A stretch of DNA of 64,000 nucleotides from an uncultured Candidatus Bathyarchaeia archaeon (GTDB lineage Archaea; Thermoproteota; Bathyarchaeia; Bathyarchaeales; DTEX01). Each line of letters begins with the position of its first letter. Within the stretch, counting starts at the first letter, position 1. Made by a program: the position numbers and the translations under genes. The notes below the pieces were generated by a model. It searched no databases and had not been told where the DNA came from. It saw only the letters and a program-made list of their open reading frames with translations. This document shows positions 3,253-42,411 of this stretch, in pieces. Where the stretch lies: contig CAYXIF010000004.1 of assembly GCA_964465575.1 (NCBI GenBank), positions 12,212 through 76,211 of the forward strand, written 5' to 3'.

Positions 3253-4450
3253 ATTTCTTCCTTCTTCTATGAGATGACTTTAGTTGTGCCCTAGGCTTGG
3301 GTTCAGCATGCTTCTTCCACATTTCCTCAATTCGCTTCCGCAGGTCTTCTTTTAGTCTGTCGCCGACAAGGTTGCCGCTGAAGGCGTCGGTCCTTACCGC
3401 AATCGAAAGTTTGCCCGCTAAGGCTCTGGCGACCTTGCCTCTAAGCCAACGTTTAGAGCCATGGACAAGAGGATGCTGGAAGATTATGCCATGCTTAGGG
3501 GGACGAGCGCCTGTCGTCAACGATCTGAAAAGAGCTTTCTCTGCACCCAACACCTGTATCGTGCTCGCAGGCCTCTTGGCCAAGTTTCCTATTCCGCCTG
3601 CAATGGCTATCAGTCTTGCTCCCAACGTTGCTCCTGCCAGGGCACGTGTGTTAGGTGCAGCTTCCTTCATAACTTCATCGAGGTACATCTCCAGTTTGGA
3701 TCTTGCGCCATACAACTCCAGAGATTGTCCACACAAGATCTGGATCTGCTCCATGTCTACGTCGTAGAAGTCGGCGCCCATTGAGGTCCTCGCAGCTTTG
3801 GCGAGCTGCACCGCCTTGTTCTTCGGCACGTTCTGTTTCTCAATGTTCTCCTCTGTGAAACCGTCTTTCCTGCCGAGATCGCGAACGAGTCTGGCGTAGA
3901 TTTCATGTTTCTCAAGAAGCCTATCAAGCTCTGGGAAATGAAGACCATACCATTCGCGTATGCGACTCATCAACAGATTCAGGGTCTTGTCTAACTCATC
4001 CAGCGCTTGAACAGCCTGCACAATCAACACGTCCCTTTTCTCAGCTGCCCTTCGCACCTTGATCTTGGATATCTCCATCGAGACGTCATGGACCCACTTG
4101 CTCAATTCAAGAGCGGATTCAAGGAAACCTGCCTCAACAGCGTATCTCGCCAGATTCTCACGCAAGGCTTCGGCGAATCTCGAAGGCGCCTCAACCTCAG
4201 TAACTACTTTTAACTCCTTTCTGACAGCTTGGGCCATCTCTGGATTCTCAAACACGAAACTGCTGTAGCCTCTCTCTTCTAGGTTCTTGACCAGAACCAC
4301 AATCTCGTTGATAGCTCTCCCAGACTCGACTTCAATGAGTCTTTCAGCTACCTTCAAAGTATCCTTAGGAAACAGAATCTTCTCAACTAGCTTCCCGTCT
4401 TCGCCGAAGCTGAAGACTCCCACAACCGACGGGACGATGGTTGCTTTCAA
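3236..4450 (-). CDS. nop5: Nop56/58 (Nop5) C/D box sRNP core protein
   Basis: NOP-domain motifs VLGAEKALFR and PKHGIIFQHP, plus a basic C-terminal tail. 17-nt overlap with the flpA start. Confidence 0.95.
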   Translation of the reverse strand: MKATIVPSVVGVFSFGEDGKLVEKILFPKDTLKVAERLIEVESGRAINEIVVLVKNLEERGYSSFVFENPEMAQAVRKELKVVTEVEAPSRFAEALRENLARYAVEAGFLESALELSKWVHDVSMEISKIKVRRAAEKRDVLIVQAVQALDELDKTLNLLMSRIREWYGLHFPELDRLLEKHEIYARLVRDLGRKDGFTEENIEKQNVPKNKAVQLAKAARTSMGADFYDVDMEQIQILCGQSLELYGARSKLEMYLDEVMKEAAPNTRALAGATLGARLIAIAGGIGNLAKRPASTIQVLGAEKALFRSLTTGARPPKHGIIFQHPLVHGSKRWLRGKVARALAGKLSIAVRTDAFSGNLVGDRLKEDLRKRIEEMWKKHAEPKPRAQLKSSHRRRKKYGRKG

Positions 4451-4546
4451 AAACGTTCACCATGAACCTTCAAACACTATTGTCTCGCCTAGTGAATAAC
4501 CTTTTCCGTAGGGGGCTGGCGTTCCCCGGAAGGGGAGCTTTAAACG

Positions 4547-4554
4547 TTAATATA
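4547..4554 (+). promoter_or_regulatory. TATA-box-like element (ttaatata) upstream of pyrD
   Basis: AT-rich octamer 31 nt upstream of the ATG at 4585, in the nop5/pyrD divergent region. Confidence 0.45.
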
Positions 4555-4584
4555 CCCAGAGTTGGCAAGACTTCAGTGATTGTC

Positions 4585-5505
4585 ATGCAGGATTCGACTA
4601 GGCTTAGAGCAGAGATCGGGGGGTTAAGCCTCAGCAATCCCACAATTCTTTCTTCGGGAATCCTGGGTACGTCATCGGACTTGTTAAGGCGGGTAGCTCG
4701 AGCCGGAGCAGGCGCGGTCACCACAAAATCTGTCGGGCTGAAAGCTCGCAGGAGCTACCAAAACCCAACAGTAATCCAAGTTGAGGGTGGACTGCTCAAT
4801 GCTCTGGGGCTGCCGAATCCCGGCATTCACGAGTTCGCCGAAGAGATCAGAGAACTGCATGATCTTGAGGTTCCATTGATCGTCAGCATCTATGGCTTCT
4901 CTGCTGAGGAGTACGCTGAGGTTGCAGCCGTCGCAGCAGACTCAGGCGCTGATGCATTGGAGCTCAATCTCTCATGTCCGCACGTGAAGGGAGCGGGAGC
5001 TGAGATCGGACAGAACCCCCAGACGATAAGCGAAGTCACAGAGAAAGTGAAAGACACGGTGGACGGGCCTGTCTTCGTCAAGCTGACCCCCAACGTGACC
5101 GACATTACGACGCTGGCCAGAGCAGCAGCCATGGTCGGCGCAGACGCTATCACGGCCATTAACACGGTCAAGGCGATGGCAATAGACATCGAGACTGCGA
5201 AGCCGATTTTGGCAAATAAGATTGGCGGGCTTTCAGGCGGAGCCATAAAACCCATCGCCGTCAGGTGCGTGTACGAGATCTATGAGGCCACGGACATTCC
5301 AGTTATTGGATGTGGAGGGATTAGAACATGGAGAGACGCTGTCGAGTTCATGTTGGCCGGAGCTTCGGCAGTCCAGATTGGTTCAGCCATAGCTTTCGAG
5401 GACTTGGCAATCTTCAATACTGTAGCGAAAGGTGTCGACTCGTACCTTGAAGGCAAAGGGCACAAGAGCGTGAAAGAGATTGTCGGGCTGGCACATAGAA
5501 GCTGA
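4585..5505 (+). CDS. pyrD: Dihydroorotate dehydrogenase, class 1B catalytic subunit
   Basis: MQDSTRLRAEIGGLSLSNPTILSSG N-terminus and NLSCPHVKG active-site region. The ORF-track start (4441) overlaps nop5 and precedes the TATA box, so the internal ATG at 4585 is preferred. Confidence 0.9.
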   Translation: MQDSTRLRAEIGGLSLSNPTILSSGILGTSSDLLRRVARAGAGAVTTKSVGLKARRSYQNPTVIQVEGGLLNALGLPNPGIHEFAEEIRELHDLEVPLIVSIYGFSAEEYAEVAAVAADSGADALELNLSCPHVKGAGAEIGQNPQTISEVTEKVKDTVDGPVFVKLTPNVTDITTLARAAAMVGADAITAINTVKAMAIDIETAKPILANKIGGLSGGAIKPIAVRCVYEIYEATDIPVIGCGGIRTWRDAVEFMLAGASAVQIGSAIAFEDLAIFNTVAKGVDSYLEGKGHKSVKEIVGLAHRS

Positions 5506-33535: not shown

Positions 33536-35575
33536 ATGGAGGCTACATTCTCACTTGCTGATACTCGGAGGTGCACCGCGCTCGGAAAGGTTCTGGTCAC
33601 TGCAGCGTGGCCGTACATCCAACACGTGCTTCATCTAGGGAACCTCTTGCCTATCCTCTCGGCCGATGTGATTGCCAGATATCACCGACTTAAGGGAGAT
33701 GAAGTCCTTTTCGTGAGTGGATCGGATGTGCATGGAACACCTATAGAAGTTGAGGCTGTAAGACAGGGAATCTCGCCCAAGGAACTGACAGAACGAAACC
33801 ACCGGGCAGTGTCTCAGTTGTTCGAGAAATGGGCGATCTCCTTCGACAACTACACCCACACGGAAAGTGCTGTCCACAAGGAATTCGTGAGAGACTTCCA
33901 CCGCAAAGTAGAGAAAAACGGATACGTCTTCACTCAAGAGACCGAGCTGCCATACTGCAAGAAATGCGAACGGTTTCTGCCCGACAGGTTCGTCGAGGGC
34001 ACATGCCCATACTGTGGGGACAAGGGTGCCAGAGGAGACCAGTGCGAACAGTGTGGCAGACTTCTAGACCCAACAAAGGTCATAGAAGCCCACTGCACAA
34101 TCTGCGGAACACGACCCGCTTTCCGCTACGTAATCCACTGGTACTTCGACCTCCCAGTGTTCGCTGAGCGACTTCTAGCGTTCATTGAGAACAACAAACA
34201 GCTTCCTGACAATGCCCGCAACTTCAGCCTGAACTACATTAAAGAAGGGTTGAAGCCACGACCTTTGACTAGAGACAGTGAATGGGGGATACCTGCGCCT
34301 TACAACGGCGCTGATGGCAAGACCCTCTATGTCTGGTTCGAGAACGTTCTGGGCTACATCTCGGCGACGATCGAATACTTCATTAGGCACGGGGTCCCTG
34401 AGAAGTGGAGAGAATACTGGTTTGACAAAGACGCGAAAACCCTCTTCTTCATAGGCAAGGACAACATCCCCTTTCATACACTGATTTTCCCAGCGCTCTT
34501 GCTCGCTACTAACGAAGGGTACAACCTTCCGTGGAACATAAGCACAAACGAGTTCCTGAACTTCGAGGGACAAAAGTCATCAAAGAGTCGCAGAGTCGGA
34601 GTCTGGATTGACGAAGCCCTTGAGACATTCCCAGCTGACTATTGGAGATACACGCTCATCGCAATACGCCCTGAGACCAAAGACACAGACTTCACTTGGA
34701 AGACGTTTCTCGAGAAAGTGAACTCAGACCTTAACGATACTTTGGGGAACTTCGTTCACCGCACGCTCAAGTTCATCAACAGCTACTACAAAGGGAGGAT
34801 TCCTGAACCCAGCGAACTAGACGGCCTTGACAATCAAACACTCCAGTCAGTTCACAAGACCTTTGGGGAAGTAGATAGAGCGTTACAGGGGATCCTACTG
34901 CAGACAACGGTCCGCCAAATCATCGAGCTGAGTCGCGAAGGAAACAGGTATCTCAACGAGAAGAAGCCTTGGAAGACCAGCAAAACAGACCCGAAGTCGA
35001 CTGCGAACACCTTGTTTGTTGCAGCTCAGATCGTCAGCGCTCTTTCAGTGTTGATTGAACCGTTCACGCCTTTCACAGCTAGGGAACTTCGTGGCTTCCT
35101 GAACCTGCCCGAGAAAGTGCAGTGGCAAGACGCCATCAAACTGGTTCCCGCAAATCACAAGATAAAAGAGGCTGAGCCCCTCTTCCGCAAGGTAGAGGCT
35201 TCAGAAGAAGGATTGGAGGAAATGGTAGAGAAAGCTAGATCGGCTTCGCAGAAGGTATCGTTCGCAGATTTTTCAAAGCTCGATATTCGTGTCGGAAAAA
35301 TAGTTAAGGCCGAAAAAGTCCCCAGATCAAGCAACCTGTTTAAACTCAGTATCGACATCGGCAGCCCCAATCTGAAAACAGCTGTAGCCGGGATTGCCAG
35401 GTACTACGCTCCCCAAGAGCTCGAGGAACGCCAGATAGCCGTGATAGTGAACTTGGAACCTAGGAAGATATTCGGGATCGAGTCCAACGTCATGATCCTC
35501 GCAGCACAGGACGAGAAGAGCGTTGTGATACTTCAGCCTGAAAAGCCTATCAAGACCGGAAGCGAGATAAGCTAG
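33536..35575 (+). CDS. metG: Methionyl-tRNA synthetase with C-terminal tRNA-binding (Trbp111/EMAP-like) domain
   Basis: Zn knuckles CKKC...CPYCG...CEQCG...CTICG, KSSKS (KMSKS position) and C-terminal FSKLDIRVGKIVKAEKV. The HIGH position reads HLGN. Confidence 0.93.
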   Translation: MEATFSLADTRRCTALGKVLVTAAWPYIQHVLHLGNLLPILSADVIARYHRLKGDEVLFVSGSDVHGTPIEVEAVRQGISPKELTERNHRAVSQLFEKWAISFDNYTHTESAVHKEFVRDFHRKVEKNGYVFTQETELPYCKKCERFLPDRFVEGTCPYCGDKGARGDQCEQCGRLLDPTKVIEAHCTICGTRPAFRYVIHWYFDLPVFAERLLAFIENNKQLPDNARNFSLNYIKEGLKPRPLTRDSEWGIPAPYNGADGKTLYVWFENVLGYISATIEYFIRHGVPEKWREYWFDKDAKTLFFIGKDNIPFHTLIFPALLLATNEGYNLPWNISTNEFLNFEGQKSSKSRRVGVWIDEALETFPADYWRYTLIAIRPETKDTDFTWKTFLEKVNSDLNDTLGNFVHRTLKFINSYYKGRIPEPSELDGLDNQTLQSVHKTFGEVDRALQGILLQTTVRQIIELSREGNRYLNEKKPWKTSKTDPKSTANTLFVAAQIVSALSVLIEPFTPFTARELRGFLNLPEKVQWQDAIKLVPANHKIKEAEPLFRKVEASEEGLEEMVEKARSASQKVSFADFSKLDIRVGKIVKAEKVPRSSNLFKLSIDIGSPNLKTAVAGIARYYAPQELEERQIAVIVNLEPRKIFGIESNVMILAAQDEKSVVILQPEKPIKTGSEIS

Positions 35576-35602: not shown

Positions 35603-36283
35603 GTGAGCATTTTGCCGCTCAAGATTGACCTTCACGTTCATACGAGCTACTCTCACGACTGCCTGACAAGCCTCGATAGCGTGATCTCTTTTGCACAGAA
35701 ACGACGCTTAAACGGTGTTTCCATAGCAGATCATGATACAATTGAAGGCGCTCTAAGACTCCTAGAGATGGCGGGCACAGGGTTGATCATAATCCCAGGG
35801 ATCGAGGTGTCAACAAGCCAAGGGCACCTACTGGGCATCAATGTTACCACGCCAATCCCTCGGGGACTTAGCATAGTGGAAACCGCTGCCAGAATACACG
35901 AAGCCGGCGGTATTGCTGTCGCTGCTCACCCGTCTTCGCCATTCAAACATGCTATAGGCCTTGACGAACGACTCATCTCATACGGTGTGGACGCGGTTGA
36001 GACTGTCAATTCAACGAATTTCCCGTTCTTTCTACTGAACTACTTGGACAAGCGGCTCGCCAGACGCACAGGGCTTCCGGTGACTGGAGGAAGCGACGCC
36101 CACTTACCTGAGGCCATAGGACTAGGCTACACTTTGATAGATGAAACGGGAACTGAAACAGACATTGACGCTGTGGTCCAAGCCATCAAGAGGGGAAGGT
36201 GCGTTCCCATTGGTAGGCCAATGCCGTGGAGACTGAGGCTGCGGAAGATTACACTAATGAGCAGTAAGCCTCCTGCGCACTAG
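35603..36283 (+). CDS. PHP-domain metal-dependent phosphoesterase
   Basis: IDLHVHTSYSHDC, ADHDT and GGSDAH motifs. Confidence 0.75.
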   Translation: MSILPLKIDLHVHTSYSHDCLTSLDSVISFAQKRRLNGVSIADHDTIEGALRLLEMAGTGLIIIPGIEVSTSQGHLLGINVTTPIPRGLSIVETAARIHEAGGIAVAAHPSSPFKHAIGLDERLISYGVDAVETVNSTNFPFFLLNYLDKRLARRTGLPVTGGSDAHLPEAIGLGYTLIDETGTETDIDAVVQAIKRGRCVPIGRPMPWRLRLRKITLMSSKPPAH

Positions 36284-37380
36284 AGCTGGTACAGGCCTAG
36301 GTCCATGGTTAGGGGCTTCACAGTTTCTTCGGCGGCATCCAACTCGTAGATCTCGGGTACAGCTGAACCGTATCCGCCGTACACGTACTGGGATCGGACC
36401 CCAGTCATGACGAGCGTGACTTTCAGGTTTCCCGCTAGGCTTGGGTCGACTCTGGCCCCCCAGATGATCAGAGCATCATCGCTCATCATTTGGGTAACGA
36501 TTTCGCCTACTCTATTGGCTTCGTCTATGGTCATCTGCTCGTCGCCTGAAACGTGGATTAAAGCTCCTTTCGCGCAGGTATAGTCGACATCTAGCAAAGG
36601 CATGTCCAAAGCTTTCTGCACTGCTTCTTCGGCTCTGTTGGGCGCGTCTGATTGCCCCACACCAGCCACAGATATGCCACCCTTCTTTACGATTGTTCTG
36701 AAATCCGCGAAGTCTAGGTTTATCAAGCTCGGCGCGGAAACTATCTCAGTGATTCCCGCGATCATGTTCGCCAAGACACCGTCCCCAACTCTGAAGGCTT
36801 CATTTAGCGGCAGCTGTGGAACGAGACGTATCAGCTTGTTGTTATCTATCACTATGACAGTGTCACATTCCCTTCGCATTTCGGTAAGCCCCTTAACGGC
36901 GTAGGCGATCCTTCCCTTTTCAATCTTGAAAGGCATTGTTACAACCCCGATGACAATGGCCGCCTTGTCCCTAGCCATCCTAGCAACAACAGACGCGGCA
37001 CCTGTGCCAGTCCCACCTCCCATGCCAGCTGTGACGAAGACTATGTCCACATCCTCCAGAACTTTTCCAACTAGCTCAGCGGACTCCTCAATCGCTGCCC
37101 TTCCAACGCGAGGGTCTCCACCTGAACCCAGTCCACGTGTTAGCTTTTCTCCAATCAGGATCTTCTGCTTCGCGTGTGTGGCTTTCAAGTGTTGCATATC
37201 AGTATTGATGGCGATGCATTCAGCGCCCACAATATTGGACTCAGTCAGACGACTCACCGTGTTGTTTCCCGCCCCCCCAACGCCCAGAACCATTATCCGA
37301 CAGGAGCCGGGCTCCCGAAGCCCTTCAGGGATCGTCTCGTCCCACGTGAATTGCAGCGCCTTGTCAGCTATCTTTGTCAT
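36280..37380 (-). CDS. ftsZ: Cell division GTPase FtsZ (canonical motifs)
   Basis: VLGVGGAGNNTV, tubulin signature AGMGGGTGTGA and T7 loop NLDFADF. ATG 37380 (MTKIADK) is preferred over the track start at 37410. Confidence 0.93.
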   Translation of the reverse strand: MTKIADKALQFTWDETIPEGLREPGSCRIMVLGVGGAGNNTVSRLTESNIVGAECIAINTDMQHLKATHAKQKILIGEKLTRGLGSGGDPRVGRAAIEESAELVGKVLEDVDIVFVTAGMGGGTGTGAASVVARMARDKAAIVIGVVTMPFKIEKGRIAYAVKGLTEMRRECDTVIVIDNNKLIRLVPQLPLNEAFRVGDGVLANMIAGITEIVSAPSLINLDFADFRTIVKKGGISVAGVGQSDAPNRAEEAVQKALDMPLLDVDYTCAKGALIHVSGDEQMTIDEANRVGEIVTQMMSDDALIIWGARVDPSLAGNLKVTLVMTGVRSQYVYGGYGSAVPEIYELDAAEETVKPLTMDLGLYQL

Positions 37381-37528
37381 CCTTTTCCCTTCCCCATAGC
37401 TCCATGGCAATCAAGTCCCTGATGGCCACGCGGATAGCTTCCGCTCTATGCGGATAGTACCGCTTGTTCACCAGCTCCTCGAGTGCCTCCAAGTATGGTT
37501 CGGGAAGATATATTGTGATGAGTTTCAC
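37364..37528 (-). CDS. Small ribbon-helix-helix (CopG/CdrS-like) DNA-binding protein, overlaps ftsZ start
   Basis: Not in ORF track (54 aa). Own translation from GTG 37528, with GGTGAG RBS at 37531-37537: VKLITIYLPEPYLEALEELVNKRYYPHRAEAIRVAIRDLIAMELWGREKDDKDS. Classic RHH pattern (beta strand ITIYLP, then two helices). Stop TGA at 37364-37366, 17 nt inside ftsZ. Confidence 0.65.
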   Translation of the reverse strand: MKLITIYLPEPYLEALEELVNKRYYPHRAEAIRVAIRDLIAMELWGREKDDKDS

Positions 37529-37580
37529 TCTCTCACCTACGGACTATAAGTCAAACAGATGGCAATAAGTGTCTGCATAA

Positions 37581-37610
37581 CATGATTTAATCATGATTCA
37601 ATCATGAATG
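37581..37610. promoter_or_regulatory. Three CATGA(T/A)T repeats at 11-bp phasing upstream of the RHH-ftsZ operon
   Basis: catgatttaatcatgattcaatcatgaatg: CATGA begins at 37581, 37592 and 37603. Internally palindromic (TCATGA). Lies between the TATA-like ctttataaag (37619-37628) and the RHH start. Confidence 0.5.
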
Positions 37611-37749
37611 AACCTTCCCTTTATAAAGTTGCACCGAGATAGGCCACTACACCCTCCTCTTTTATGTAAAAAAGGCACGATCGATCCAAATCGTTTTCTC
37701 TTAACGCTACAACTCCGGCGCTTAGAGTGCGCAGTCAAGTATATATATC

Positions 37750-39126
37750 GTGCCCGCATGGATTTGCTTGATAAGGTTGGTCCCTGATGTATTTTCAAGC
37801 GTTCAAGGGTTGTCGAACGCTTCCTCTGCGGAGTGTCCCGCCGCTGGTCTGTTCTATGTAGAGAATTACGGGTGCGCAGCCAACTCCTTTGATCTAGGTG
37901 TTATAAACGCCCTCTTGATCAATGCGGGATACCGGCCGGTCAGTAGGCCTGATCAGGCAAGTGTCGTTGTCGTGAATACCTGCGGGGTGAAGAAACCTAC
38001 TGAGGACAGGATCATTGGAAGAATACGACTCCTCAACCAAATCAACAAACCTCTGGTGATTGCAGGTTGTCTTCCAAAGATCAACTTGGAAGCTGTGCTG
38101 AGAGCAGCACCAAACTTCTCTGCCATCCTTGACCCTTGGAGCGTCGATAAGATACTCTTAGCCGTGGAAGAAGCTGTCAGCGGTGGGAAGAATAGGATAT
38201 ACTTCTCTCAAAAGCCCATCCAGAAGTTGGACCAGCCTAGAATGCGGCTCAACTCTACAATCGAGATCGTGCAAGTCTCTGAAGGATGTACCCGCGCCTG
38301 TGCCTTCTGCTGTGTAAGGCTTGCCAGAGGCGCGCTTTTCTCCTATCCAGTAGAGAAGATAGTTCGAAGGATCACTCAAGCAGTCTCGGAGGGCGCGAAC
38401 GAGGTTTGGCTCACTTCCCAGGACAATGGAGCTTACGGTCTAGACATCGGCACCAATATCGCTGAGTTGCTCTACCAGTGTTGCCAAGTCGCGGGGAAGT
38501 TTCTGATCCGAGTCGGCATGATGAATCCTGACCATGTACTTGGGATGCTTCCTGAGCTAGTCCGCGCATACAAGCAAAAGAAAGTTTTCAAGTTCTTGCA
38601 TGTGCCTATTCAAAGCGGCGACGACGAGACATTGAAGCGCATGAACCGTGGTTACACTGTTGATGAGTTCGAAACGATAGTCAACTCGTTCAGGGAGGTC
38701 ATTCCCCGGATAACTCTTTCCACAGACGTCATATGTGGATTCCCCGGAGAGGGCCGGGAAGCCTTTGGGGAGACTCTAAAGATAATCAATAAAACAAAGC
38801 CTGACATAGTCAACATTTCAAAGTTCTTTCCAAGACCAAACACGCCTGCAGAGAAGATGGAGCGCGTCGACCCAAAAGAGGTGAAGGACAGAAGCCGGGA
38901 GCTAACCAAGCTGGCAAGAGAGATTTCTTCCCAAAGAAACAGGACCTGGCTGGGTTGGGAGGGCGAGATGCTCGTCGACGAGAAAGGGAAGGATTTCACG
39001 TGGGTTGGGAGAAACTTTGCCTACAAACCAGTAGTGGTGAAGAGCGATGAGAACCTGGCTGGGAAGTTTGTGCGTGCAAGGGTCGTTGAGTTCTTCTCGA
39101 CCTATCTTGGAGCCGTGGTCACTTAG
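37750..39126 (+). CDS. Radical-SAM methylthiotransferase, MiaB/MtaB (CDKAL1-like) family
   Basis: MTTase N-domain Cys (YGCAANSFD, NTCGVK, AGCLP), radical SAM CTRACAFC and a C-terminal TRAM-like segment. The true start is probably downstream (for example TTG 37810), because a TATA box (gtatatatat) abuts 37750. Confidence 0.8.
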   Translation: MPAWICLIRLVPDVFSSVQGLSNASSAECPAAGLFYVENYGCAANSFDLGVINALLINAGYRPVSRPDQASVVVVNTCGVKKPTEDRIIGRIRLLNQINKPLVIAGCLPKINLEAVLRAAPNFSAILDPWSVDKILLAVEEAVSGGKNRIYFSQKPIQKLDQPRMRLNSTIEIVQVSEGCTRACAFCCVRLARGALFSYPVEKIVRRITQAVSEGANEVWLTSQDNGAYGLDIGTNIAELLYQCCQVAGKFLIRVGMMNPDHVLGMLPELVRAYKQKKVFKFLHVPIQSGDDETLKRMNRGYTVDEFETIVNSFREVIPRITLSTDVICGFPGEGREAFGETLKIINKTKPDIVNISKFFPRPNTPAEKMERVDPKEVKDRSRELTKLAREISSQRNRTWLGWEGEMLVDEKGKDFTWVGRNFAYKPVVVKSDENLAGKFVRARVVEFFSTYLGAVVT

Positions 39127-39162
39127 CGGTTTACTTCTGTTGTCCCGATTGTCCTTCTTCTT

Positions 39163-39516
39163 CTACTTGTTGACTGTTTGGTTGATCTCCTCCTCGATAA
39201 TGTGACCGTGGCAGTAGACGAGAGCCTTCTTGACGCCCTCGATGTTCTCTGCTCTGCTCTTTACCTCGATCGCCATCTTTGTCGCGTCTGTGCAGATGGG
39301 GCTTGAGAGCGTGAAGTCAATTCTGACGACCCCTGGTTGGATCTCCTTGACGCTTTGGACCATTTCCATCTGGCCAAAGGTTAGCCCTGTCTCGAGGTCG
39401 ACCACCTTCTCTACCTCAGCTAGAACTTTGCTCTCAAGGTCCTTCATCAGTTCTTCACGCAACTCAGGAGCTTCAAGATGGGTACGCAACAGATTGTTGT
39501 GGAGAATAGGGGTCAC
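39163..39516 (-). CDS. DUF59/MIP18-family Fe-S assembly-related protein
   Basis: 117 aa. VVDLETGLTFGQMEMVQSV...VRIDFTLSSPIC resembles the DUF59 (SufT/PaaD-like) core. Confidence 0.5.
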   Translation of the reverse strand: MTPILHNNLLRTHLEAPELREELMKDLESKVLAEVEKVVDLETGLTFGQMEMVQSVKEIQPGVVRIDFTLSSPICTDATKMAIEVKSRAENIEGVKKALVYCHGHIIEEEINQTVNK

Positions 39517-39549
39517 TTCCTAATAAGATTACCGTGGTCATCTTGGCCT

Positions 39550-40257
39550 TCAGAGATCCCCTTTCAGTATTGCCAGCATCTTCCTTGAGTTGTCGAGCAT
39601 CGCGTGATTATTGTTGAAGAACACATAGGCTTTCTCCGATTTCGTCTCAATTATTTTCGTTGCAACATCTTTCAGTTCTTCGTCAGAGTAACGATGAGAA
39701 TACCACCCAAGCCGGCCGTGCATTCTCTGGTAGACGATTCCGCTCGTGTCAAACACCACTAGGGGCAGAGTGGGGCAATCAACACCTACAAGAGTTATTC
39801 CTAGCTCTCTTGCCCATTCAACCCACTTGCCGCTAAACCAAGTAGCGTTCCTTGGTTCGAACGCGAACCTGTGACCTAAGAGCGTCTTCTCTGCAAAGGA
39901 AGCAATCGCTGAAGCCGAACTTGCTTTCGTGCTGGGTGGAAGCTGGAAAAGGTAGAAGTCGATCAGGTGATCTAGTGGGCCGAACAGTTCCATGAAGCTC
40001 TCCCAAAGGCCTAGGGCCTTCTCATTAAATCTGTAGAGATGTGTTATGGCCCTGTTGGTCTTGATCGACCATCTGAGCGATCTACATTTCACTGCCCAGG
40101 ATCTTACGGCATTGGGAAACGGGAATCGGTAGAAACTGGCGTTCAGTTCAACAGCGTTTAGGCCGGCGTTGATCACATACCAGTCTAAGCTCGCCTTCTT
40201 ATTCCAGCCGTAAAGCCAGCCCGATGTGCCAACATAAACCTCCATAGGCCTCAGCAA
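39550..40257 (-). CDS. DUF72 (UPF0759) family protein
   Basis: VGTSGWLY...ELNASFYRFP pattern typical of DUF72. Confidence 0.7.
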   Translation of the reverse strand: MLRPMEVYVGTSGWLYGWNKKASLDWYVINAGLNAVELNASFYRFPFPNAVRSWAVKCRSLRWSIKTNRAITHLYRFNEKALGLWESFMELFGPLDHLIDFYLFQLPPSTKASSASAIASFAEKTLLGHRFAFEPRNATWFSGKWVEWARELGITLVGVDCPTLPLVVFDTSGIVYQRMHGRLGWYSHRYSDEELKDVATKIIETKSEKAYVFFNNNHAMLDNSRKMLAILKGDL

Positions 40258-40267
40258 CAGGTAAGGA

Positions 40268-41329
40268 TCAATGGGAGAAACCTTGCCGAAGTGTATTGAA
40301 CGAGGCTGGACCCTCTAGTAGGAACCTGCTACCCACGCCTGCCAGCACCAATGTCACACGAATGAAACCCGTCATGCTTGTGTCCACTCCGGTACCCCAT
40401 GAAACGTTGGCGTCAGGTGAAATCCTGCTCACGATCATCTCTCCTGCTTTGTTAAACTCCTCTAAGGTCATGTCGTCTCCCCCTTCAATGTTAACCAAGG
40501 CGGCTTGGCATTTGTCTATGTCTTCGATGTCGAGAAGCTGGGAGTCCAACGCTTTATGCACAGCGTCTTCAACCCTAGTCTGTCCTGAGCCTTCTCCTAT
40601 GCCCATGGCGCATACTCCACTTTCAGTCGCGATCGCCTTCAAGTCCGCGAAGTTCAAGTTCACAAGGCTTGGGTAAGATATTGCCTCCGATAGGCTTCTG
40701 ATGAAAGAAGCAATCAGATTGTTCGCGAGACCGAAAGATTCGATGATGGGCAAGTTGCCTGCGATTTTCCTAAGCCTATTATTATCAACGACGATGACAG
40801 CGTCACAGGTCTCGACGAGCCGCTCCAATCCTTTCTTGGCCTTTGCCAGCCTCGGTCCCTCAGCTAAGAAGGGAATCAAAACGACTCCAAAGGTCAGAAC
40901 CTGCATTTCCTTCGCGATCGTCGCCACAACGGGAGTAGCACCAGTCCCTGTTCCTCTCCCTAGTCCTGCAATCAGAAAGGACAGACCAGATCCTTTCAGC
41001 ACACTTGCTATTTCGATTGAACTTTCTCCTGCAACCCTTGCCCCTAGCTCTGGAGAGTCACCGCAACCAAGACCCCGACAGACATCGTATCCTAACAAGA
41101 TTTTCCTGTCGGCTGCAATCCTGCTCAGTTGCATGGCGTCGCTGTTCAATGCGTAGATTCTTGCGCCAAAGACGCCTTTTTCTTTGATCCAAGAAGCAAT
41201 ATTGCATCCCGCTCCTCCAATGCCCAGTACACTGATACGAGGGATAGACTCTGTGGCTATTTCCTCTATGCTCTTCTCACAGAATGCCTTGTCCCGGACT
41301 ATACTGGGTTCCTTGAGCTGTTCCGCCAA
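40268..41329 (-). CDS. FtsZ/tubulin-family paralog with degenerate GTPase motifs
   Basis: VLGIGGAGCNIASWI. The G-box reads AGLGRGTGTGA (Arg at codon 40955-40957) and the T7 loop reads NLNFADL (Asn at 40652-40654) instead of NxDFAD. Confidence 0.8.
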   Translation of the reverse strand: MAEQLKEPSIVRDKAFCEKSIEEIATESIPRISVLGIGGAGCNIASWIKEKGVFGARIYALNSDAMQLSRIAADRKILLGYDVCRGLGCGDSPELGARVAGESSIEIASVLKGSGLSFLIAGLGRGTGTGATPVVATIAKEMQVLTFGVVLIPFLAEGPRLAKAKKGLERLVETCDAVIVVDNNRLRKIAGNLPIIESFGLANNLIASFIRSLSEAISYPSLVNLNFADLKAIATESGVCAMGIGEGSGQTRVEDAVHKALDSQLLDIEDIDKCQAALVNIEGGDDMTLEEFNKAGEMIVSRISPDANVSWGTGVDTSMTGFIRVTLVLAGVGSRFLLEGPASFNTLRQGFSH

Positions 41330-41523
41330 TTCTTGCCCACGCTCTTAGCATTTGATCTGAAGAAGCCTTCCCAGTTCTGCCAGCCTAAGATTCGGTTCAG
41401 AAAGGGATAAAGCTTTTGGGGTGTCTAACGGAGCTTGCGGTTCGCTACTACTCAGAATTCCTGGCCTGCAGCACAAACCTTTCAAACCGGTGGAGTGATT
41501 ATCTCACGGGGTTGGACGAAGCA

Positions 41524-42411
41524 ATGATCGGAATCTTGACGCGCAACGAAGGATCTTGGTGTTCTGCCCAATTGAGGAAGGCATTCACTAGACAAGGAGT
41601 CCCGTCGATGTGTTTTGGCTTTCCTAGCCTCGTGGCTCGTGTTGCGCTCAGGCCTGAAGTCTCAGTTGCAGAGACCGATGTTCTCAAGGAACTCGAAGCT
41701 GTGATCGTGCGACCAGTGGGACGCGGGTCCTTGGAAGAGATCATTTTCCGGATGGATCTTCTTCATCGACTCGAACGGTTAGGCACTTACGTGGTAAACC
41801 CGCCTTCAGCTATTGAACGGTCGGTTGACAAGTACTATACTCTTGCGCTTCTTGAGGAAGCGGGCCTCGCTGTCCCTCGAACAGTTGTAGCTGAAGACGC
41901 TGATAACGCCCTGAAGGCATTCGAAGAGCTAGGAGGCGATGTTGTAGTCAAGCCCATTTTCGGCTCGCGCGGCATTGGCTCAGTGAGAGTCTCTGAGCCC
42001 AACTTGGCTGAAAGAGTCTTCAGAGCAGTTGCTTTTCAGCATCAAGTCCTGTACATTCAAGAATTCGTTCCACATGGGAACTACGATGTGCGAATCTTCG
42101 TTCTAGGCAGACGAGTCCTGGCGTCCATGCGAAGAATAGCCGACTCATGGAAGACCAACGTGAGTCTCGGCGCAAAGCCCGTTGCTTACAGGCCACAAAG
42201 CAAAGTCAGAAAGCTAGCTCTTAAAGCCACGGAGATCATCGGCTGCGAGATAGCTGGGGTAGATGTCTTGGAGACTGAGAAAGGTCCTTTGGTGATCGAG
42301 CTCAATAGTCAGCCGGGCTGGAAAGGTCTTCAATCCGTTACTGAAGTGAACATAGCGGACGAGATAGTCAGATACATGCTCGATAGACTTAAGGCGAAGG
42401 TAAAGCGATGA
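41524..42411 (+). CDS. RimK-family ATP-grasp alpha-L-glutamate ligase (MptN/CofF-like)
   Basis: ATP-grasp blocks VVKPIFGSRGIGS, IQEFV, DVRIFVLG and AGVDVLE. ATG 41524 (MIGILTR) is preferred over the track start. Confidence 0.7.
   Translation: MIGILTRNEGSWCSAQLRKAFTRQGVPSMCFGFPSLVARVALRPEVSVAETDVLKELEAVIVRPVGRGSLEEIIFRMDLLHRLERLGTYVVNPPSAIERSVDKYYTLALLEEAGLAVPRTVVAEDADNALKAFEELGGDVVVKPIFGSRGIGSVRVSEPNLAERVFRAVAFQHQVLYIQEFVPHGNYDVRIFVLGRRVLASMRRIADSWKTNVSLGAKPVAYRPQSKVRKLALKATEIIGCEIAGVDVLETEKGPLVIELNSQPGWKGLQSVTEVNIADEIVRYMLDRLKAKVKR

What the first reader, a model, noticed from the sequence alone, without database searches (positions are those of the whole stretch)
37364..37528. Unannotated 54-aa ribbon-helix-helix gene overlapping the start of ftsZ (cdrS-like arrangement)
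This gene falls below the ORF-track length cutoff. GTG at 37528 is preceded by a GGTGAG RBS and encodes VKLITIYLPEPYLEALEELVNKRYYPHRAEAIRVAIRDLIAMELWGREKDDKDS, a textbook RHH (CopG/Arc/MetJ) fold pattern. Its stop lies 17 nt inside ftsZ, implying co-transcription and translational coupling. A small RHH regulator (CdrS) co-transcribed with an ftsZ gene and controlling division has been reported in haloarchaea. This locus would extend that module to a very different, H4MPT-pathway lineage.
Basis: partly seen in the sequence, partly recalled or inferred. Interest (0 to 1): 0.65.

Follow-up and report, generated by a model that had tools for sequence, protein, structure and literature searches.

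The report
CdrS-like regulator gene overlapping ftsZ
This is a real, strongly conserved 54-residue DNA-binding (ribbon-helix-helix) gene fused in an operon with a cell-division ftsZ gene in a Bathyarchaeia archaeon. It is the counterpart of the haloarchaeal division regulator CdrS, an arrangement already reported across most archaeal lineages.

Summary
A 54-codon ORF (37364-37528, minus strand) starts at GTG behind a GGTGAG ribosome-binding site and overlaps the ftsZ ATG (37380) by 17 nt. It passes Pfam RHH_1 (33.2 bits, cutoff 20.5). It is under strong purifying selection (median dN/dS 0.04). Relatives occur in 503 species genomes, and the best 80 are all Bathyarchaeia or unnamed archaeal MAGs. 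In 73 of those 80, an orthologous ftsZ follows directly (junction -20 to +6 nt).

The closest known family is haloarchaeal CdrS (profile-profile probability 98%; best NCBIfam hit). It fails the halophile-specific CdrS cutoff, so it is a separate TACK subfamily, shared with Caldarchaeales. The downstream FtsZ groups with FtsZ2 with moderate support.

Two things look new. First, every Bathyarchaeia locus has a TATA box followed by three 11-bp pseudo-palindromic boxes over the predicted transcription start; this is probably an autoregulatory operator. Second, one sublineage has replaced ftsZ with a conserved 63-residue "tail-only" FtsZ remnant.

Darnell et al. 2020 and Pende et al. 2021 already reported the RHH-ftsZ2 linkage across archaea, and Darnell et al. 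included Bathyarchaeota genomes in their survey. Verdict: a new member of a known kind, of modest interest.

The parts
37364..37528 (-). 54-aa ribbon-helix-helix (CdrS-like) gene with a GTG start and TGA stop
   Evidence: ORF and translation. Pfam RHH_1 33.2 bits, cutoff 20.5. dN/dS 0.04. AlphaFold model: extended residues 1-9, helix 10-22, helix 28-51, pLDDT 70. The identical protein is called as a gene on public contigs.
37532..37537 (-). Shine-Dalgarno-like GGTGAG, 3 nt before the GTG start
   Evidence: Sequence. A GGTGA or GGAGG element sits at the same place in the related loci.
37620..37627 (-). Predicted TATA box, TTTATAAA
   Evidence: Sequence. A conserved CTTATAAG/TTTAAAA element lies about 17 nt upstream of box 1 in 78 aligned upstream regions. 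Its function is inferred.
37574..37606 (-). Three tandem 11-bp boxes: CATGATTGAAT (37606-37596), CATGATTAAAT (37595-37585) and CATGTTATGCA (37584-37574). The array contains the perfect palindrome AATCATGATT. It is the predicted operator and overlaps the predicted transcription start near 37597.
   Evidence: The 18-mer pattern gives 4 overlapping matches here against 0.01 expected, and none elsewhere in the 64 kb. The consensus CATgTTTaAAtCATATTT..TAtTAT is conserved in 78 loci. All 69 matches (at most 1 mismatch) in 564 kb of related loci lie less than 150 nt upstream of the RHH start. The binding protein and the transcription start are inferred.
37364..37380 (-). 17-nt overlap between the RHH stop and the ftsZ start (translational-coupling junction)
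   Evidence: Sequence. Junction lengths in related loci: -17 (19 loci), -20 (24), 0 (13), +1 (4), others between -56 and +6.
37381..37395 (-). Purine-rich tract GGGGAAGGGAAAAGG inside the RHH tail codons (W-G-R-E-K), a likely ribosome-binding region for ftsZ
   Evidence: Similar GGGGAAG/GGAGAAG/GGAGGAAG tracts lie 9-21 nt upstream of the ftsZ start in most related loci. Function is inferred.
36280..37380 (-). ftsZ (366 aa) co-oriented with and overlapped by the RHH gene; FtsZ2-like
   Evidence: Pfam Tubulin plus FtsZ_C and TIGR00065 at 372.9 bits. It groups with FtsZ2 anchors in 189 of 200 NJ bootstraps. The FtsZ2-clade HMM scores 397.6 bits against 375.8 for the FtsZ1-clade HMM. The ATG at 37380 is conserved as the start in orthologues.

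Best explanation
The ORF encodes a small, single-domain ribbon-helix-helix DNA-binding protein. It is the Bathyarchaeia (TACK) counterpart of the haloarchaeal cell-division regulator CdrS. It is transcribed from one promoter as the first gene of a bicistronic RHH-ftsZ2 operon. Its 3' end overlaps the ftsZ start and carries a purine-rich ribosome-binding tract, so ftsZ translation is coupled to translation of the regulator. The protein most likely binds as dimers to three 11-bp-spaced pseudo-palindromic boxes. These lie just downstream of the TATA box and over the predicted transcription start. Binding there would feed back negatively on its own operon and so set the FtsZ dose. It may also control other promoters, as CdrS does in Haloferax.

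Shown: the gene is real and under strong selection; it has an RHH domain; its linkage to ftsZ is conserved; it is most similar to CdrS; the promoter and box architecture is conserved.

Inferred: co-transcription, translational coupling, the identity of the protein that binds the boxes, the sign of regulation, and the role in division.
For: Gene reality. RHH domain and fold. Linkage: an orthologous ftsZ follows directly in 73 of 80 Bathyarchaeia loci with a -20 to +6 nt junction. The same arrangement occurs in Caldarchaeales HR02 with an 8-nt overlap.

CdrS relationship: a haloarchaeal RHH was verified as CdrS by its cdrL-RHH-ftsZ context. It aligns with the window protein from Met1 at 35% identity, 75% positives, E 7e-12. 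Profile-profile comparison gives 98.2% probability, E 5.5e-14. The best NCBIfam family is 'transcriptional regulator CdrS'. The Bathyarchaeia profile scores halo CdrS at a median of 40 bits, against 27 bits for NikR.

FtsZ2 affinity of the partner gene.

Operator. [quoted passage not shown] Archaeal factors that bind at or downstream of the promoter usually repress (PMC8406309, discussion). CdrS function in division: PMC7439475, PMC8406309.
Against: There are no expression or binding data for any Bathyarchaeia. The NCBIfam CdrS equivalog cutoff is not met (36.9 vs 100 bits). The invariant haloarchaeal C-terminal WAKV motif is absent. In Halobacterium the cdrS-ftsZ2 promoter is bound by CdrL, which is absent here. 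The Haloferax CdrS ChIP-seq table does not list its own promoter and places most sites upstream of promoters, consistent with activation (PMC8406309). Autorepression is therefore not the documented haloarchaeal mode. The FtsZ2 assignment rests on NJ trees and clade HMMs with few labelled anchors. The window's second ftsZ also falls on the FtsZ2 side, and the Caldarchaeales FtsZ is ambiguous. Six related genomes keep the RHH gene without a full-length ftsZ, so regulating the adjacent ftsZ in cis cannot be its only role.
Confidence: 0.75

Rival explanations
1. It is a type II antitoxin of the ParD/CopG class, as JGI's automatic annotation says, and only happens to sit next to ftsZ.
For: JGI names many homologues 'antitoxin ParD1/3/4'. 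Foldseek hits include the ParD, PrpA and VapB RHH domains. There is a weak VapB_antitoxin Pfam hit, E 0.13.
Against: No toxin gene is adjacent. The downstream gene is ftsZ in 73 of 80 loci, and the upstream gene is a divergently transcribed radical-SAM enzyme. At 54 aa there is no C-terminal toxin-binding extension. There is no PADLOC hit. The gene occupies one fixed chromosomal neighbourhood and is very strongly conserved, unlike mobile toxin-antitoxin modules.
Confidence: 0.03
2. The RHH protein acts mainly as a direct protein partner or modulator of FtsZ (or SepF). The tight translational coupling would then reflect a stoichiometric complex rather than transcriptional control.
For: Start-stop overlap is typical of subunits of one complex. 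In the ftsZ-less sublineage the RHH gene stays coupled to a 63-aa ORF that keeps only the FtsZ tail. That would fit an interaction through the tail.
Against: The DNA-contacting N-terminal strand and helix 2 motif (KLITLYLPE...YPNRAEAIR) are the most conserved parts. A conserved repeat operator sits in its own promoter. Haloarchaeal CdrS binds DNA in vivo (PMC8406309).
Confidence: 0.1
3. An RHH gene was recruited upstream of ftsZ independently in TACK archaea. It would then be convergent with CdrS rather than orthologous, and its regulon could be unrelated to division.
For: The CdrS equivalog cutoff is not met. Identity to halo CdrS is only 35%. The tails differ. The Odinarchaeia and Lokiarchaeota ftsZ genes, and one of unnamed origin (P0247), have no RHH gene upstream. 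RHH domains are short and their similarity can be generic.
Against: Halo CdrS is the best-scoring family, ahead of NikR. The alignment is colinear and gap-free from Met1. The position relative to an FtsZ2-like gene is the same in Halobacteria, Bathyarchaeia and Caldarchaeales. Published surveys find the pair in most archaeal clades (PMC7439475, PMC8178401).
Confidence: 0.12

Closest known systems
CdrS (cell division regulator, short) of Halobacteria: Halobacterium salinarum VNG0194H and Haloferax volcanii HVO_0582; NCBIfam NF058555
   Same: Both are small single-domain RHH proteins (54 aa here, 57-61 aa there). Both are the first gene of an operon with an FtsZ2-type ftsZ and have a minimal or negative intergenic gap. 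They share the core motif LP-x7-(V/L)V-x4-(Y/F)P(N/H)R(A/S)EAIR-x-A(I/V)R(D/E). Evidence; PMC7439475; PMC8406309.
   Different: The window protein scores 36.9 bits against the 100-bit equivalog cutoff. It lacks the C-terminal WAKV motif. There is no cdrL gene upstream; a divergent radical-SAM gene sits there instead. The genes overlap by 17 nt rather than being 2-4 nt apart. The promoter carries three AT-rich 11-bp boxes at the predicted transcription start, whereas the Halorubrum cdrS promoter examined here carries GTAAGAC/GTCTTAC repeats. Function is untested.
aCcr1, the RHH cell-cycle regulator of Sulfolobales and their viruses (NCBIfam NF053762)
   Same: A small archaeal RHH from a TACK lineage that controls a division gene. 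[quoted passage not shown] This is the same geometry as the boxes here.
   Different: There is no NF053762 hit for the window protein at E<=0.01. aCcr1 regulates the ESCRT-type cdvA gene rather than ftsZ, is not encoded next to its target, and has a different box sequence.
NikR N-terminal RHH domain, and the CopG/Arc/ParD bacterial RHH repressors and antitoxins
   Same: The same fold, and the best solved-structure matches: NikR at 26.9 bits with 41% identity in Foldseek, plus ParD and PrpA. They bind repeats as dimers through an N-terminal beta-ribbon and are commonly autoregulatory (general knowledge of the family).
   Different: There is no nickel-binding C-terminal domain, no toxin partner and no plasmid context. 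The window protein scores lower against these than against CdrS.

Membership tests
RHH_1 / CopG-Arc-MetJ superfamily (Pfam PF01402) | Sequence match above the Pfam gathering score | tested here: met
   33.2 bits against a cutoff of 20.5, E 4.5e-8, residues 4-40.
RHH_1 / CopG-Arc-MetJ superfamily (Pfam PF01402) | N-terminal strand followed by two helices (beta-alpha-alpha) | tested here: met
   The AlphaFold2 monomer has extended residues 1-9, helix 10-22 and helix 28-51, mean pLDDT 70. The top Foldseek hits are RHH domains, though their E-values are not significant for so short a chain.
RHH_1 / CopG-Arc-MetJ superfamily (Pfam PF01402) | Obligate dimer that binds DNA repeats through the paired beta-ribbon | not testable with these tools
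   Only indirect evidence: three conserved 11-bp pseudo-palindromic boxes in its own promoter.
CdrS (NCBIfam NF058555 equivalog; Darnell 2020, Liao 2021) | Score at or above the curated equivalog cutoff (100 bits) | tested here: not met
   36.9 bits. It is nonetheless the best NCBIfam family for this protein. A verified halo CdrS scores 122.5 bits.
CdrS (NCBIfam NF058555 equivalog; Darnell 2020, Liao 2021) | Small stand-alone RHH protein encoded immediately upstream of, and co-oriented with, ftsZ | tested here: met
   17-nt overlap in the window. The arrangement is conserved in 73 of 80 related loci. The haloarchaeal reference locus L082 has the same order with a 4-nt gap.
CdrS (NCBIfam NF058555 equivalog; Darnell 2020, Liao 2021) | The partner ftsZ belongs to the FtsZ2 family | tested here: met
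   It groups with FtsZ2 anchors, away from FtsZ1 and bacterial FtsZ, in 189 of 200 NJ bootstraps. Clade HMMs favour FtsZ2 by 21.8 bits, and 3 of 4 signature columns match FtsZ2. Support is moderate: only NJ trees were possible, there are few labelled anchors, and pairwise scores do not discriminate.
CdrS (NCBIfam NF058555 equivalog; Darnell 2020, Liao 2021) | cdrL (RHH plus double zinc ribbon) upstream, as in the haloarchaeal CdrSL network | tested here: not met
   The upstream gene is a divergent UPF0004/Radical_SAM/TRAM enzyme. CdrL is reported as restricted to Halobacteria (PMC7439475), so this feature defines the CdrSL network, not CdrS itself.
CdrS (NCBIfam NF058555 equivalog; Darnell 2020, Liao 2021) | Binds DNA in vivo and controls cell-division genes; loss causes division defects | not testable with these tools
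   No cultured or genetically tractable Bathyarchaeia, and no expression data, are available in these tools.
Type II antitoxin (ParD/CopG type) | Adjacent cognate toxin gene and a C-terminal toxin-binding region | tested here: not met
   The neighbours are ftsZ and a radical-SAM gene. The protein is only 54 aa. No PADLOC hit.
NikR | C-terminal nickel-binding (ACT-like) domain, total length about 130-140 aa | tested here: not met
   The protein is 54 aa. Matches cover only the N-terminal 46-50 model positions of NikR and fall far below the cutoffs.
aCcr1 (NCBIfam NF053762) | Match to the aCcr1 family model | tested here: not met
   No hit at E<=0.01 for the window protein.

The most novel reading that the evidence does not exclude
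The TACK version may be a self-contained minimal CdrS circuit. RHH dimers would occupy three 11-bp-spaced boxes over the transcription start and autoregulate the RHH-ftsZ2 operon without any CdrL partner. In one Bathyarchaeia sublineage (including Ca. Bathyarchaeum) the same switch would now drive a conserved 63-aa 'tail-only' FtsZ. That remnant keeps the C-terminal motif that matches the archaeal FtsZ C-terminal (SepF-binding) tail, so it could be a new kind of division-regulating micro-protein or decoy.
Probability: 0.3. Interest if true: 0.55.

Novelty: new member of a known kind. Interest (0 to 1): 0.3.

Why it matters
The finding confirms that the CdrS-ftsZ2 module is a deeply conserved archaeal cell-division unit that reaches the uncultured Bathyarchaeia and Caldarchaeales. 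It also adds concrete, testable detail for that lineage. There is a precisely defined candidate operator (3 x 11 bp at 37574-37606) and a translational-coupling junction. Neither needs genetics in an uncultured organism: both could be tested by EMSA with a synthetic 54-aa protein and by metatranscriptome read-through. It does not change the current picture of archaeal division control. The side observation may be of more interest to specialists than the original finding. A tail-only FtsZ remnant has been kept under selection and is still coupled to the regulator.

Tried and rejected
1. Classifying the two FtsZ paralogues by pairwise scores failed. M. jannaschii FtsZ1 and halo FtsZ2 score about equally against each other and against the window proteins. 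I replaced this with bootstrapped NJ trees and clade HMMs. No ML tree software was available.

2. The cluster names of FtsZ representatives gave organisms but no FtsZ1 or FtsZ2 labels.

3. Foldseek on the 54-aa monomer gave RHH hits, but none was significant.

4. I looked for the box motif elsewhere. There is none upstream of the second ftsZ or anywhere else in the 64 kb, and none outside the RHH promoter in 564 kb of related loci. No regulon could therefore be inferred.

5. Rfam found nothing in 36000-42000.

6. PADLOC found nothing for the RHH protein.

7. The supplementary table of Darnell et al. that lists the 93 cdrS-ftsZ2 loci is not held. I could not confirm which Bathyarchaeota loci they scored as syntenic.

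8. The Odinarchaeia and Lokiarchaeota ftsZ contexts, and one of unnamed origin (P0247), showed no RHH gene upstream. The module is therefore not universal.

9. The haloarchaeal CdrS sequences were obtained with a query sequence recalled from memory, used only as a lead. The hits were validated by source names and by the cdrL-RHH-ftsZ context.

10. The sigma-70 promoter scanner was not used, because the organism is an archaeon.
Full report
**Observation.** The minus strand of 37364-37528 holds a 54-codon ORF that starts at GTG. GGTGAG lies at 37537-37532, 3 nt before the start. The stop (TGA, 37366-37364) lies 17 nt inside the next ORF, whose ATG is at 37380. That ORF is an FtsZ: Pfam Tubulin plus FtsZ_C and TIGR00065 at 373 bits. 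A short ORF is not remarkable in itself, since the same 9 kb holds 59 ORFs of at least 40 aa. Everything therefore rests on conservation.

**Is it a gene?** Yes.
- A search of 5.8 billion protein clusters found 314 homologue clusters. The best 120 are 64-89% identical, and those with names come from Bathyarchaeia/Bathyarchaeota MAGs.
- A scan of one genome per prokaryotic species found relatives in 503 genomes. The best 80 are all Bathyarchaeia or unnamed archaeal MAGs.
- The aligned start is ATG in 71 of 80 loci, TTG in 7 and GTG in 1, so the GTG here is the true start.
- A GGTGA or GGAGG element precedes the start everywhere.
- 23 of the 54 positions of the window protein are invariant in an alignment of 32 sequences.
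- Nei-Gojobori dN/dS over 391 pairs with 0.2<dS<2 has a median of 0.04.
- The identical 54-aa protein is carried by 14 public contigs. In those examined (L083, L084) it is a called gene with the 17-nt overlap.

**What is it?** It matches Pfam RHH_1 at 33.2 bits against a cutoff of 20.5. An AlphaFold2 model built from the family alignment has mean pLDDT 70. It shows an extended N-terminal segment (residues 1-9) and two helices (10-22 and 28-51), the RHH topology for a monomer modelled without its partner. The best Foldseek matches are RHH domains of NikR, ParD, PrpA and VapB, although no E-value is significant for so short a chain. By sequence, the only solved relatives are NikR RHH domains, at 26-27 bits.

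**Relation to CdrS.** I recovered haloarchaeal candidates with a sequence recalled from memory, used only as a lead. I then verified one, P0136 from Halorubrum lacusprofundi, by its genomic context. It lies between a gene with the Pfam CdrL_M domain and a 405-aa FtsZ. This is the published cdrL-cdrS-ftsZ2 order (PMC7439475).
- The window protein aligns with P0136 from Met1 without gaps: 35% identity, 75% positives over 40 residues, E 7e-12.
- The Bathyarchaeia and haloarchaeal family profiles match at 98.2% probability, E 5.5e-14.
- Among 18,950 NCBIfam models the best hit is NF058555, 'transcriptional regulator CdrS', at 36.9 bits. NikR models follow at 30 bits or less. The halophile-tuned equivalog cutoff of 100 bits is not met.
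- The Bathyarchaeia profile scores 120 halo CdrS proteins at a median of 40 bits. It scores a Caldarchaeales RHH at 81 bits.
- The invariant haloarchaeal C-terminal WAKV motif is absent.

I therefore treat the window protein as a member of a TACK subfamily whose closest characterised relative is CdrS, not as a CdrS equivalog.

**Linkage to ftsZ.** In 73 of the 80 related loci an orthologue of the window's downstream FtsZ follows directly. Most are 58-84% identical; four loci (L067, L070, L071, L080) are only 37-49% identical.
- Junction lengths are -17 nt (19 loci), -20 (24), 0 (13) and +1 (4), with the rest between -56 and +6.
- One further locus ends at the contig edge.
- A purine-rich tract encoded by the conserved W-(G/R)-R tail codons lies 9-21 nt before the ftsZ start in most loci. 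This fits ribosome loading inside the RHH gene.
- Caldarchaeales HR02 has a 48-aa orthologue (VKVVTVHLPEAYLEAIDELVKRRLYPNRAEAIRMAVRDFIKEEARSSE). It overlaps its ftsZ by 8 nt.
- An Odinarchaeia ftsZ, a Lokiarchaeota ftsZ and one of unnamed origin (P0247) have no RHH gene upstream.

**Which FtsZ family?** Pairwise scores do not discriminate. M. jannaschii FtsZ1 and halo FtsZ2 score about 318 bits against each other. The window proteins score similarly against both. I therefore used the 150 best representatives from an exhaustive search, with M. jannaschii FtsZ1 and the verified halo FtsZ2 as anchors.
- In bootstrapped neighbour-joining trees oriented on bacterial FtsZ, the RHH-linked FtsZ groups with the FtsZ2 anchors in 189 of 200 replicates.
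- Clade HMMs favour FtsZ2 by 21.8 bits, and Bathyarchaeia orthologues do so consistently.
- 3 of 4 signature columns match FtsZ2.

Support is moderate. No ML software was available, labelled anchors are few, the window's second ftsZ also falls on the FtsZ2 side, and the Caldarchaeales protein is ambiguous.

**Promoter and likely mechanism.** The 220-nt intergenic region is shared with a divergent radical-SAM gene. Aligning the upstream regions of 78 loci shows a fixed architecture.
- A TATA box (CTTATAAG or TTTAAAA; TTTATAAA at 37627-37620 in the window) comes first.
- About 17 nt downstream lie three tandem units with an exact 11-bp period: CATgTTTaAA, tCATATTT and TAtTAT.
- The window copies are CATGATTGAAT, CATGATTAAAT and CATGTTATGCA, at 37606-37574.
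- Each unit is pseudo-palindromic around CAT(G/A). The window holds the perfect palindrome AATCATGATT.
- The two-box pattern matches only here in the 64 kb (4 overlapping matches, 0.01 expected).
- All 69 matches in 564 kb of related loci lie within 150 nt upstream of the RHH start.

With the usual archaeal TATA-to-start distance, the transcription start falls near 37597, inside the boxes. That leaves a leader of about 70 nt. RHH proteins bind as dimers to repeats on one DNA face. [quoted passage not shown] Archaeal factors that bind at or after the promoter generally repress (PMC8406309).

The best-supported model is that dimers of the 54-aa protein occupy the three boxes and autoregulate a bicistronic RHH-ftsZ2 transcript, with translational coupling fixing the ratio of regulator to FtsZ. 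This is inference. Neither the binding protein nor the sign of regulation is shown. In Halobacterium the corresponding promoter is bound by CdrL (PMC7439475), which these genomes lack.

**Rivals.**
- Antitoxin (JGI's label). Excluded in practice: there is no toxin neighbour, no C-terminal extension, a fixed chromosomal context and no PADLOC hit.
- NikR. Excluded by length.
- Direct protein partner of FtsZ or SepF. Not excluded, but the most conserved residues are the DNA-contacting ones and an operator is present.
- Independent recruitment rather than orthology with CdrS. Possible but less likely, given the colinear best-family match and the same position next to an FtsZ2-like gene in three distant lineages.

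**What is already known.**
- Darnell et al. [quoted passage not shown] They list Bathyarchaeota, Korarchaeota and Asgard genomes as manually inspected.
- Pende et al. 2021 note that ftsZ2 is frequently next to 'parD'. ParD is the automatic label given to homologues of this protein.
- Only the Darnell paper and its preprint mention CdrS together with Bathyarchaeota in the searchable library. Their locus table is not held.

Extending the module beyond haloarchaea is therefore published. This is a new member of a known kind. In the literature I could search, I found no description of the conserved three-box promoter, the overlap junction or the variant described next.

**Side finding.** Six related loci keep the RHH gene, its promoter and the same neighbours (radical-SAM, PHP, MetRS) but lack a full ftsZ. 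They are L051, L053, L056, L061 (the Ca. Bathyarchaeum chromosome CP070820), L072 and L079.
- In five of them a 62-63-aa ORF starts at the former ftsZ ATG, overlapping the RHH stop by 8 nt. In L053 the homologous tail is present, but its start was not determined.
- Its last 24-33 residues are homologous to the FtsZ C-terminal tail (...NIEPYTEP...HIDLxLDQLE). Local alignment scores are 57-90, against 28-29 +/- 4-5 for shuffles.
- dN/dS among four of the loci is 0.18-0.45 at dS 0.5-1.4, and the frame is always open.
- 38 clusters of almost invariably 63 residues exist in public data, all 'hypothetical'.

The GTPase core was therefore deleted in frame, and a tail-only mini-FtsZ has been retained, still coupled to the regulator. 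This shows that the RHH gene is maintained independently of a full-length ftsZ. It also raises the possibility of a SepF-binding micro-protein. I did not establish whether these genomes hold another ftsZ copy.

**Verdict.** Interest is modest (0.3).

Noticed in passing
L051, L056, L061, L079 at 4149-4340; L072 at 4152-4340; L053 at about 4150-4390 (related loci, not the window): Six Bathyarchaeia genomes, including the Ca. Bathyarchaeum chromosome CP070820, have a conserved short ORF in place of ftsZ. In five loci it is 62-63 aa and overlaps the RHH stop by 8 nt; the L053 start was not determined. It keeps only the FtsZ C-terminal tail motif (NIEPYTEP...IDLxLDQLE). dN/dS is 0.18-0.45, and 38 public clusters, nearly all of 63 residues, are labelled 'hypothetical'. 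It may be a tail-only FtsZ micro-protein.
   Followed up: partly
window 40268-41329 (-): A second, more divergent ftsZ paralogue (353 aa) lies 2.7 kb upstream of the RHH gene on the same strand. It has no RHH gene and no box motif in front of it. It also falls on the FtsZ2 side in NJ bootstraps (181 of 200), but the clade HMMs are ambiguous (+5 bits). It is not at this position in the 80 related loci.
   Followed up: partly
L070 and L071, about 4157-5257: In these two loci the ftsZ after the RHH gene is only 37-40% identical to the window's FtsZ. For L070, the one scored, it does poorly on both the FtsZ1 and FtsZ2 clade HMMs (215 and 205 bits). It may be a replaced or fast-evolving paralogue.
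   Followed up: no
window 35603-36283 (+) and 33536-35575 (+); L086; L087: The neighbourhood is old. A PHP-domain gene convergent with ftsZ is also found next to an Odinarchaeia ftsZ (L087). A MetRS-like gene lies next to the Caldarchaeales RHH-ftsZ pair (L086). The window MetRS carries a C-terminal tRNA_bind (EMAP-like) domain.
   Followed up: no
L082 3830-3995: The promoter region of a verified haloarchaeal cdrS (Halorubrum) holds five copies of GTAAGAC/GTCTTAC, including the inverted repeat GTAAGAC-N4-GTCTTAC just after a TTTTATATT box. The repeat sequence differs from the Bathyarchaeia boxes. This may be the CdrL site.
   Followed up: no
P0241, P0242, P0243 (representative proteins): The three best-scoring representatives for the window FtsZ are 744-840-aa proteins with two FtsZ-like stretches each. 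They are apparent tandem double-FtsZ fusions of unknown origin.
   Followed up: no
L006 4497-4802: The FtsZ match in this locus is split, with residues 117-217 missing. The cause may be a masked stretch, an insertion or an assembly gap.
   Followed up: no
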